In this document: one piece after another, positions 58,934 through 59,026 of the stretch
How positions within the stretch are numbered: position 1 is the first letter of the stretch
Layout of the letters: every line of letters begins with the position of its first letter
Translations under genes and position numbers: made by a program
Notes under the pieces: generated by a model
Seen by the model: the letters and a program-made list of their open reading frames with translations, nothing else
Told to the model about the DNA's origin: nothing
The model's database searches: none
NCBI GenBank assembly: GCA_964016885.1
Contig: OZ024742.1
Coordinates: 142,290,001 to 142,354,000 of the forward strand
Source of the DNA: Eledone cirrhosa
Lineage: Eukaryota
DNA length: 64,000 bases
Direction: 5' to 3'

Positions 58934-59026
58934 TTTTCAGCAAACAGGTGGAGTACTTGGCTTTGATAAGTACCAATCAGTACGAAATAGAGCTCTGTCA
59001 GCTTTATCTCCCTTGTTTGCTGAAAA
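58934..59026 (+). ncRNA. Extended type I hammerhead, U3-A8 core variant
   Basis: UUUUCAGCAAACAGGUGGAG(UACUU)GGCU-UUGAUAA-GUAC(CAAUCA)GUAC-GAA-AUAGAGCUCUGU-C-AGCU(UUAU)CUCCCUUGUUUGCUGAAAA. Confidence 0.75.

What the first reader, a model, noticed from the sequence alone, without database searches (positions are those of the whole stretch)
58934..59026. U3-A8 core-variant hammerhead with compensatory stem changes between two copies
Seen: the core reads UUGAUAA instead of CUGAUGA. Against the homolog at 7171-7216, stem II changes GCAU/AUGC to GUAC/GUAC and stem III changes ACAAGG/CCUUGU to AUAGAG/CUCUGU. The core, the GUC site and the GGAG-loop-GGCU / AGCU-loop-CUCC stem I are kept, and stem I extends ~20 bp further. 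Established: C3 and G8 form a tertiary Watson-Crick pair and U3-A8 is a tolerated covariant. Inference: a structurally selected, possibly monomer-active HHR that standard descriptors would miss.
Basis: partly seen in the sequence, partly recalled or inferred. Interest (0 to 1): 0.75.

Follow-up and report, generated by a model that had tools for sequence, protein, structure and literature searches.

The report
Variant hammerhead in a retrozyme family
This is one cut-down copy of a 320-base non-coding repeat with over 2,000 copies in this animal genome; its units carry a predicted self-cutting RNA with an already known base swap in its core, which likely cuts in pairs rather than alone and is likely pasted around the genome by Penelope-type jumping-gene enzymes.

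Summary
The motif is real: a type I hammerhead with a U3-A8 core and a GUC site at 58997-58999. It lies in a 5'-truncated solo copy (58897-59105) of a ~320-bp tandem repeat, a non-LTR retrozyme. A relaxed pattern finds 2,380 exact genomic matches: 1,744 U3-A8, 544 C3-G8, 92 other. The two cores form sister clades, so the 3-8 covariation is real but is one evolutionary event. Stems II, III and outer stem I covary between subfamilies. Stem III is a 12-nt palindrome, and the computed folds favour a double hammerhead over monomers in 10 of 10 natural U3-A8 dimers, so 'monomer-active' is not supported. Insertions end at two fixed sites about 30 nt apart in TA runs, the Penelope 'tail' footprint. 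Corrections: the outer stem is 15 bp and family-wide, one 'compensatory' base is a private mutation, and the 7171 homolog has an extra A in its core. Natural U3-A8 cores (PMC3088659, PMC4209133) and animal retrozymes (PMC7229834) are in print, and this scan noted U3-A8 retrozymes before, in this genome and in others. Cleavage and expression are untested. Verdict: new member of a known kind.

The parts
58897..59105 (+). 5'-truncated solo copy of the ~320-bp retrozyme monomer, subfamily A; lacks a ~28-nt hairpin near its 3' end
   Evidence: 94% identity to monomer positions 75-278; family copies
58934..58948 (+). Outer stem I, 5' strand (15 bp with 59012-59026)
   Evidence: covaries across subfamilies
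58950..58962 (+). Stem I 5' strand: GGAG, internal loop 1, GGCU
58963..58969 (+). Core 5' strand UUGAUAA (U3 at 58963, A8 at 58968)
58970..58983 (+). Stem II (4 bp) with 6-nt loop 2
58984..58986 (+). Core G12-A13-A14
58987..58998 (+). Stem III, 12-nt palindrome with a private C-to-U change at 58988
58999..58999 (+). C17, predicted cleavage after this base (GUC triplet)
   Evidence: position inferred from hammerhead numbering
59000..59026 (+). Stem I 3' strand: AGCU, loop, CUCC, outer stem
59103..59121 (+). TA run at the element's 3' end (end site A)
   Evidence: family pattern
7160..7354 (+). Subfamily B copy (U3 7175, extra A 7196, C17 7212), right arm of a tail-out inverted insertion, ends at site A
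6950..7159 (-). Inverted left arm of the same insertion, second U3-A8 core, ends at site B about 26 nt further into the unit

Best explanation
The motif is the type I hammerhead sequence of a ~320-bp tandem, non-coding repeat family (a non-LTR retrozyme) with U3-A8 and C3-G8 sister clades; it is predicted to self-cleave after GUC mainly as a double hammerhead, and the repeat is likely inserted into TA microsatellites by Penelope-like RT/endonuclease proteins. Shown: the motif, the 320-bp period, copy numbers, clades, covariation and insertion ends. Inferred: tandem copies are transcribed; two hammerheads pair through the stem III palindrome and cut out a unit-length RNA; this RNA circularises; a Penelope protein nicks AT-rich DNA and starts reverse transcription at two fixed sites about 30 nt apart, giving tandem, 5'-truncated and tail-out inverted copies. 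The copy at 58897-59105 is a truncated solo that cannot give a unit-length RNA and likely has no role of its own.
For: Period 319-324 in most tandem copies (range 315-333) and an array of over 5 kb. 2,380 exact matches, reversed-pattern control 0: 1,744 U3-A8, 544 C3-G8, 92 other against about 888 expected if positions 3 and 8 were independent. The clades split at 100/99 support in a 45-row tree. On 35 hand-picked copies, 95.3% of cells pair and 15 of 27 pairs change on both sides; slid controls pair 33-44%. The fifth stem III pair, which could close only a 2-nt loop in a monomer, changes A-U to G-C (26 and 5 rows). Double-hammerhead fold lower than two monomer folds in 10 of 10 distinct U3-A8 dimers. 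Circular monomer z -4.4 to -6.9 in 3 of 3 units folded, GC 34%. 138 of 159 outer 3' ends fall at two sites; 67 of 74 site-B ends are followed by a TA run against 10.7% in flanks. 90 of 135 insertions have two outward 3' ends; of 70 with both at fixed sites, 61 pair A with B (35 expected, p 6e-11), matching the 30-40 bp PLE tail of PMC11167929.
Against: No cleavage or expression data. The 3-8 change is one branch of the tree, and no outgroup roots it. Most copies were picked by patterns that contain the core, so core conservation is partly built in. Subfamily B spread to 203 exact copies with an extra A inside the core, and hammerhead mutants did not affect insertion of a lizard PLE in vitro (PMC11167929), so cleavage may not be needed for spreading. 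Even the double-hammerhead fold lies 1.3 to 13.9 kcal/mol above the free ensemble. No autonomous partner was found: 19 of 170 family loci hold PLE coding fragments and only 3 join the repeat without a TA run. Eight of nine Xenopus retrozyme dimers did not cleave in vitro (bioRxiv 10.64898/2026.07.22.740005).
Confidence: 0.8

Rival explanations
1. The copies are truncated terminal repeats (pLTRs) of an autonomous Penelope-like element not yet found, not an independent non-autonomous element.
For: PLE tail footprint and inversions. U3-A8 hammerheads are in print for PLE termini (PMC4209133). Three loci join PLE coding fragments directly.
Against: Unit-length head-to-tail arrays with no ORF between units. 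The three junctions involve different PLE fragments and positions. No match between the unit and the PLE ends in the window. The motif has full stems I-III, unlike PLE minimal hammerheads.
Confidence: 0.1
2. The ribozyme is a relic in the U3-A8 clade: the repeat now spreads without cleavage, and DNA-level template switching keeps the palindromes.
For: Subfamily B carries a core insertion yet spread. The family forms inversions often. The monomer misfolds in silico by 3-8 kcal/mol. PLE insertion in vitro did not need cleavage.
Against: Stem II changed stepwise through a G-U intermediate with pairing kept. Ten core positions are the same in 8 of 8 subfamily majorities while 35 of 148 columns outside the ribozyme vary (partly built in by the patterns). 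The 3-8 pair is not an inverted repeat that template switching would repair.
Confidence: 0.06
3. The hammerhead cleaves efficiently as a monomer (4-bp stem III with a 4-nt loop, held by loop 1-loop 2 contacts and the long outer stem).
For: A 4-bp stem III is longer than the 1-2 bp usual in animal type I hammerheads (PMC4209133). The loops line up with the HH9 consensus. Nearest-neighbour energies leave out tertiary contacts. A coral retrozyme monomer cleaved at 0.8 per min (PMC7229834). Some monomer cleavage is compatible with the best explanation.
Against: This copy's stem III has no hairpin alone (0.0 kcal/mol) but a -16.3 kcal/mol duplex. The active monomer fold holds 0.17% of the ensemble. 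The innermost palindrome pairs covary.
Confidence: 0.04

Closest known systems
Animal non-LTR retrozymes (coral, mussel, axolotl; PMC7229834, parts 2-3 of 6 and passages read)
   Same: Tandem units of 150-450 bp, GC under 50%, one type I hammerhead per unit, self-paired circular fold; axolotl units of 330-350 bp cleave better as dimers.
   Different: U3-A8 core in most copies; stem III palindrome of 12 nt instead of 1-2 bp plus a loop; circular RNA not shown here.
U3-A8 minimal hammerheads of Cercyon Penelope-like elements in Schistosoma mansoni (PMC4209133, parts 1-2 of 4 read)
   Same: Same core covariation, about 1,300 hits there, palindromic dimer-type stem III.
   Different: Those are minimal motifs with a long stem II and poorly defined loop 1 in PLE termini; this one has a 4-bp stem II, a defined loop 1, a long stem I and sits in ORF-free tandem units.
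Natural U3-A8 hammerheads of Perreault et al. 2011 (PMC3088659, section 8 and passages read)
   Same: C3-G8 covaries to U3-A8 in several natural examples, stated to be active in vitro from earlier work.
   Different: Section 8 names core insertions after A6 and at 13a, not one between C11.1 and G12 as in subfamily B; it does not describe both cores in one repeat family.
Poseidon PLE of the green anole (PMC11167929, parts 1-2 of 4 read)
   Same: AT-rich targets and two reverse-transcription start sites 30-40 nt apart that define the 'tail'.
   Different: That element encodes its own RT/endonuclease; this one encodes nothing.

Membership tests
Type I hammerhead ribozyme | Core U4 G5 A6 A9 G12 A13 A14, A15.1-U16.1, H17 | tested here: met
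Type I hammerhead ribozyme | Watson-Crick pair between positions 3 and 8 | tested here: met
   U-A here; 2,288 of 2,380 family matches are U-A or C-G
Type I hammerhead ribozyme | Three stems, stem I open, supported by covariation | tested here: met
   related rows, so not a probability
Type I hammerhead ribozyme | Loop 1-loop 2 tertiary contact | tested here: inconclusive
   Loops align to the HH9 consensus; loop 2 keeps C...A ends; contact itself not testable
Type I hammerhead ribozyme | Self-cleavage after the NUH triplet | not testable with these tools
   needs an assay
Rfam RF02275 Hammerhead_HH9 | Gathering score 52 bits | tested here: not met
   15.7 bits
Non-LTR retrozyme | Tandem unit of 150-450 bp with a type I hammerhead in each unit | tested here: met
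Non-LTR retrozyme | Low GC, non-coding | tested here: met
   GC 34%; no ORF of 120 aa or more over the window copies; units abut with no ORF between
Non-LTR retrozyme | Stable self-paired circular fold | tested here: met
   z -4.4, -6.9, -5.1; 57-64% paired in 3 units
Non-LTR retrozyme | Expressed as unit-length linear and circular RNA | not testable with these tools
   no run on record as RNA was available
Non-LTR retrozyme | No LTR, PBS or PPT; long target-site duplications where present | not tested
   ends lie in TA runs, where duplications cannot be read
Penelope-like element (autonomous) | RT plus GIY-YIG ORF flanked by the repeat | tested here: not met
   19 of 170 loci hold PLE fragments within 1.5 kb, 3 joined directly, none as a flanked ORF
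Penelope-like element (mobilisation footprint) | Two 3' end sites 30-40 nt apart, inverted copies, AT-rich targets | tested here: met

The most novel reading that the evidence does not exclude
One genome holds a dated series of ribozyme-core evolution: a C3-G8 retrozyme with an imperfect stem III switched to U3-A8 on the same branch on which stem III became a perfect 12-nt palindrome. U3 would have been the permissive step, because it weakens a misfold of stem I onto that palindrome by about 3 kcal/mol, and it turned the element into an obligate dimer cutter. A later lineage then kept spreading with an A inserted between C11.1 and G12, an active core variant that my searches did not find in print.
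Probability: 0.15. Interest if true: 0.55.

Novelty: new member of a known kind. Interest (0 to 1): 0.3.

Why it matters
The variant and the element type are known, so the finding alone is ordinary. Its use is as test material. One family carries both 3-8 pairs, a graded set of stem III palindromes (9, 11 and 12 nt) and a core-insertion lineage, so natural sequences can test whether cleavage, and dimer cleavage in particular, is needed for a retrozyme to spread. The strict pairing of the two end sites also predicts where a Penelope RT would start on this RNA. Descriptors fixed on CUGANGA would miss about three quarters of this family's matches.

Tried and rejected
Rfam over the whole window listed no hit at this place among the 150 of 167 rows shown; the microRNA hits are TA-repeat artefacts. 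A first search for a C3-G8 sister with a fixed 6-nt loop found 0, and 20 unrelated C3-G8 motifs had no match to the unit; the sister clade has a 5-nt loop and turned up by chance in L041. Expression: no RNA holder listed. Contigs of two runs of unknown kind were laid; they showed further variants and say nothing on expression. The idea that the outer stem is an inversion artefact was rejected: it is in all subfamilies and covaries. The idea that U3 always prevents misfolding was rejected as a general rule: swapping to C3-G8 costs about 3 kcal/mol in the A, D and E backgrounds but gains about 2 in B and C. The first tally of insertion ends split at the unit boundary and was redone. No autonomous partner was found in the fetched loci. 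Literature searches for U3-A8 in canonical retrozymes or for an insertion before G12 gave only the papers cited; the library lacks most subscription papers. Przybilski and Hammann 2007 was seen only as a reference and was not held; a 2017 paper on dimer-cleaving PLE hammerheads is recalled and was not held. No supplements were read; their alignments may already show such variants. A sequence look-up among earlier findings gave nothing.

Full report
Observation. The sequence at 58934-59026 holds a type I hammerhead layout with U3 at 58963, A8 at 58968 and C17 at 58999. Rfam aligns it end to end with Hammerhead_HH9, loops included, at 15.7 bits against a gathering score of 52. The homolog at 7175-7212 is 83% identical. 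The outer stem adds 15 bp, not 20. The U at position 15.2 is private to this copy. The homolog has an extra A between C11.1 and G12.

What it sits in. The own genome (3.0 Gb) holds many copies at 95-97% identity. Flanks show a repeating unit of about 320 bp: TRF gives period 320 in L013 and 321 in L060, and L118-L120 cover an array of over 5 kb. The unit has 34% GC, and 3 of 3 units folded as circles beat their shuffles (z -4.4 to -6.9, 40 shuffles each). The window copy covers unit positions 75-278 only and ends in a TA run. It lies about 27 kb past the last coding exon seen of a Cys-loop channel gene. This fits the non-LTR retrozymes of PMC7229834 (parts 2-3 and passages read).

The 3-8 pair. 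A pattern with positions 3, 7 and 8 left free gave 2,380 exact matches and 0 for the reversed control. Of these, 1,744 are U3-A8 and 544 are C3-G8, leaving 92 against about 888 discordant expected under independence. The counts are lower bounds, both arms of an inverted insertion count, and subfamily G4 (GUU triplet) falls outside the pattern. In trees of 152 copies and of 45 rows, up to 6 per subfamily, the two cores fall on either side of one branch (100/99, length about 0.06). So this is one coupled change, not thousands. There is no outgroup; C3-G8 as the ancestral state rests on the general hammerhead consensus. Copies differ from their subfamily majority by 2.4-5.1% in pattern-sampled loci, so both clades were mobile recently.

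Covariation. On 35 of 163 copies, picked by hand to cover eight subfamilies, 95.3% of cells pair, 15 of 27 pairs change on both sides, and 0 of 500 shuffles reach that; slid controls pair 33-44%. The rows are related and two have scrambled 5' ends, so this is not a probability. Lineage-level events read from the tree: stem II pair 1 G-C to A-U; pair 2 U-A to C-G in both clades; pair 4 C-G to U-A with a G-U intermediate; stem III pairs 4 and 5.

Monomer or dimer. The common U3-A8 stem III forms are perfect 12-nt palindromes (duplex -19.5 to -24.3 kcal/mol, hairpin 0 to -1.8); C3-G8 forms have 4-5 bp arms around 1-2 unpaired bases. The fifth pair would close a 2-nt loop in a monomer, yet it changes A-U to G-C, which is meaningful only in a duplex; it is one event. 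As a monomer, the window copy's lowest fold pairs stem I and U3-U4 onto the palindrome, and the active fold is 3.95 kcal/mol up. One search folded 18 rows, 12 distinct dimers after removing overlapping loci. In 10 of 10 U3-A8 dimers the double hammerhead (+1.3 to +13.9 over the free ensemble) beat two monomer folds (+5.2 to +26.0). One U3-G8 dimer did too; the one C3-G8 dimer, with damaged stems, showed no preference. These energies leave out tertiary contacts, so some monomer activity is not excluded.

How it moves. Of 159 outer 3' ends, 64 fall at site A and 74 at site B, about 26-36 nt further. Site A ends in the unit's own TA run, so only site B tests targeting: 67 of 74 are followed by a TA run against 626 of 5,850 flank positions. 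Of 135 distinct insertions, 90 have two outward 3' ends, and of the 70 with both at fixed sites 61 pair A with B (35 expected, p 6e-11). The insertion at 6950-7354 is such a case. I ran this pairing test after earlier notes of the scan mentioned paired end points. It matches the two RT start sites and the 30-40 bp tail of a Penelope element (PMC11167929). The window holds RT/GIY-YIG fragments, but no partner was identified: 19 of 170 loci hold PLE coding hits and 3 join without a TA run.

Against. Subfamily B has 203 exact copies with the extra core A, forms tandem dimers and is a well-supported terminal clade. Either the insertion is tolerated or cleavage is dispensable. In the lizard PLE, ribozyme mutants did not affect insertion in vitro, and 8 of 9 Xenopus retrozyme dimers did not cleave (bioRxiv 10.64898/2026.07.22.740005, parts 1 and 3 of 5 and passages read). 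Core conservation is partly built into my sampling.

What is known. Natural U3-A8 cores are reported in PMC3088659 and, with about 1,300 hits, in Schistosoma PLE hammerheads (PMC4209133). PMC5680766 (passages) added nothing. The scan's own notes list U3-A8 retrozymes in this genome (591-bp and 316-bp units) and in others; I did not check whether those in this genome are related to this family, and a sequence look-up found no look-alike. My searches did not find a family with both cores or an insertion before G12, within a library that lacks most subscription papers; supplements were not read.

Verdict. A real hammerhead motif with a known variant core in a new retrozyme family; likely a dimer cutter; this locus is a truncated passenger. 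New member of a known kind, interest 0.3.

Noticed in passing
window 59121-59295; also 43254-43313 and about 35 fetched loci: A second abundant short repeat with the same build: inverted 5' part, fixed 3' end in a TA run, GC-rich foldback. My pattern found no hammerhead in it. Likely another Penelope-mobilised element.
   Followed up: partly
window 27532-27603 (-): Unrelated C3-G8 type I hammerhead, HH9 37.7 bits, below the gathering score; similar cores at a few other genomic places.
   Followed up: no
window 13345-13383 (+), 11632-11670 (-), 5711-5756 (-), 38888-38936 (-), 21153-21191 (+), about 36665 (+): Minimal hammerheads with long stem II and AT-rich stem III, as in PLE termini; the first two belong to an inverted pair of about 380 bp.
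   Followed up: partly
window 4118-5530 (-), 14895-16619 (-), 34243-35694 (-), 36009-36461 (+): Broken Penelope-like RT/GIY-YIG fragments of at least three families; Pfam confirms GIY-YIG for 14898-16127 only; the other labels are from recall of the motifs.
   Followed up: partly
window 28877-29449 and about 31450-31600 (+): Exons of a Cys-loop ligand-gated ion channel (Neur_chan_memb; last transmembrane segment with stop).
   Followed up: partly
L009:1862-2025 and L171-L190: Divergent C3-G8 subfamily G4 with a GUU triplet, a U-U mismatch at the base of stem II and a 9-nt stem III.
   Followed up: partly
L096:1406-1428, L118:1447-1448, L006 near 1836: Retrozyme copies joined directly to PLE coding fragments with no TA run between; possible template switches by a shared RT.
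   Followed up: partly
window 309-1564 (-) and 18553-19815 (+): LINE-type reverse transcriptase fragments (type from recall of the motifs).
   Followed up: no
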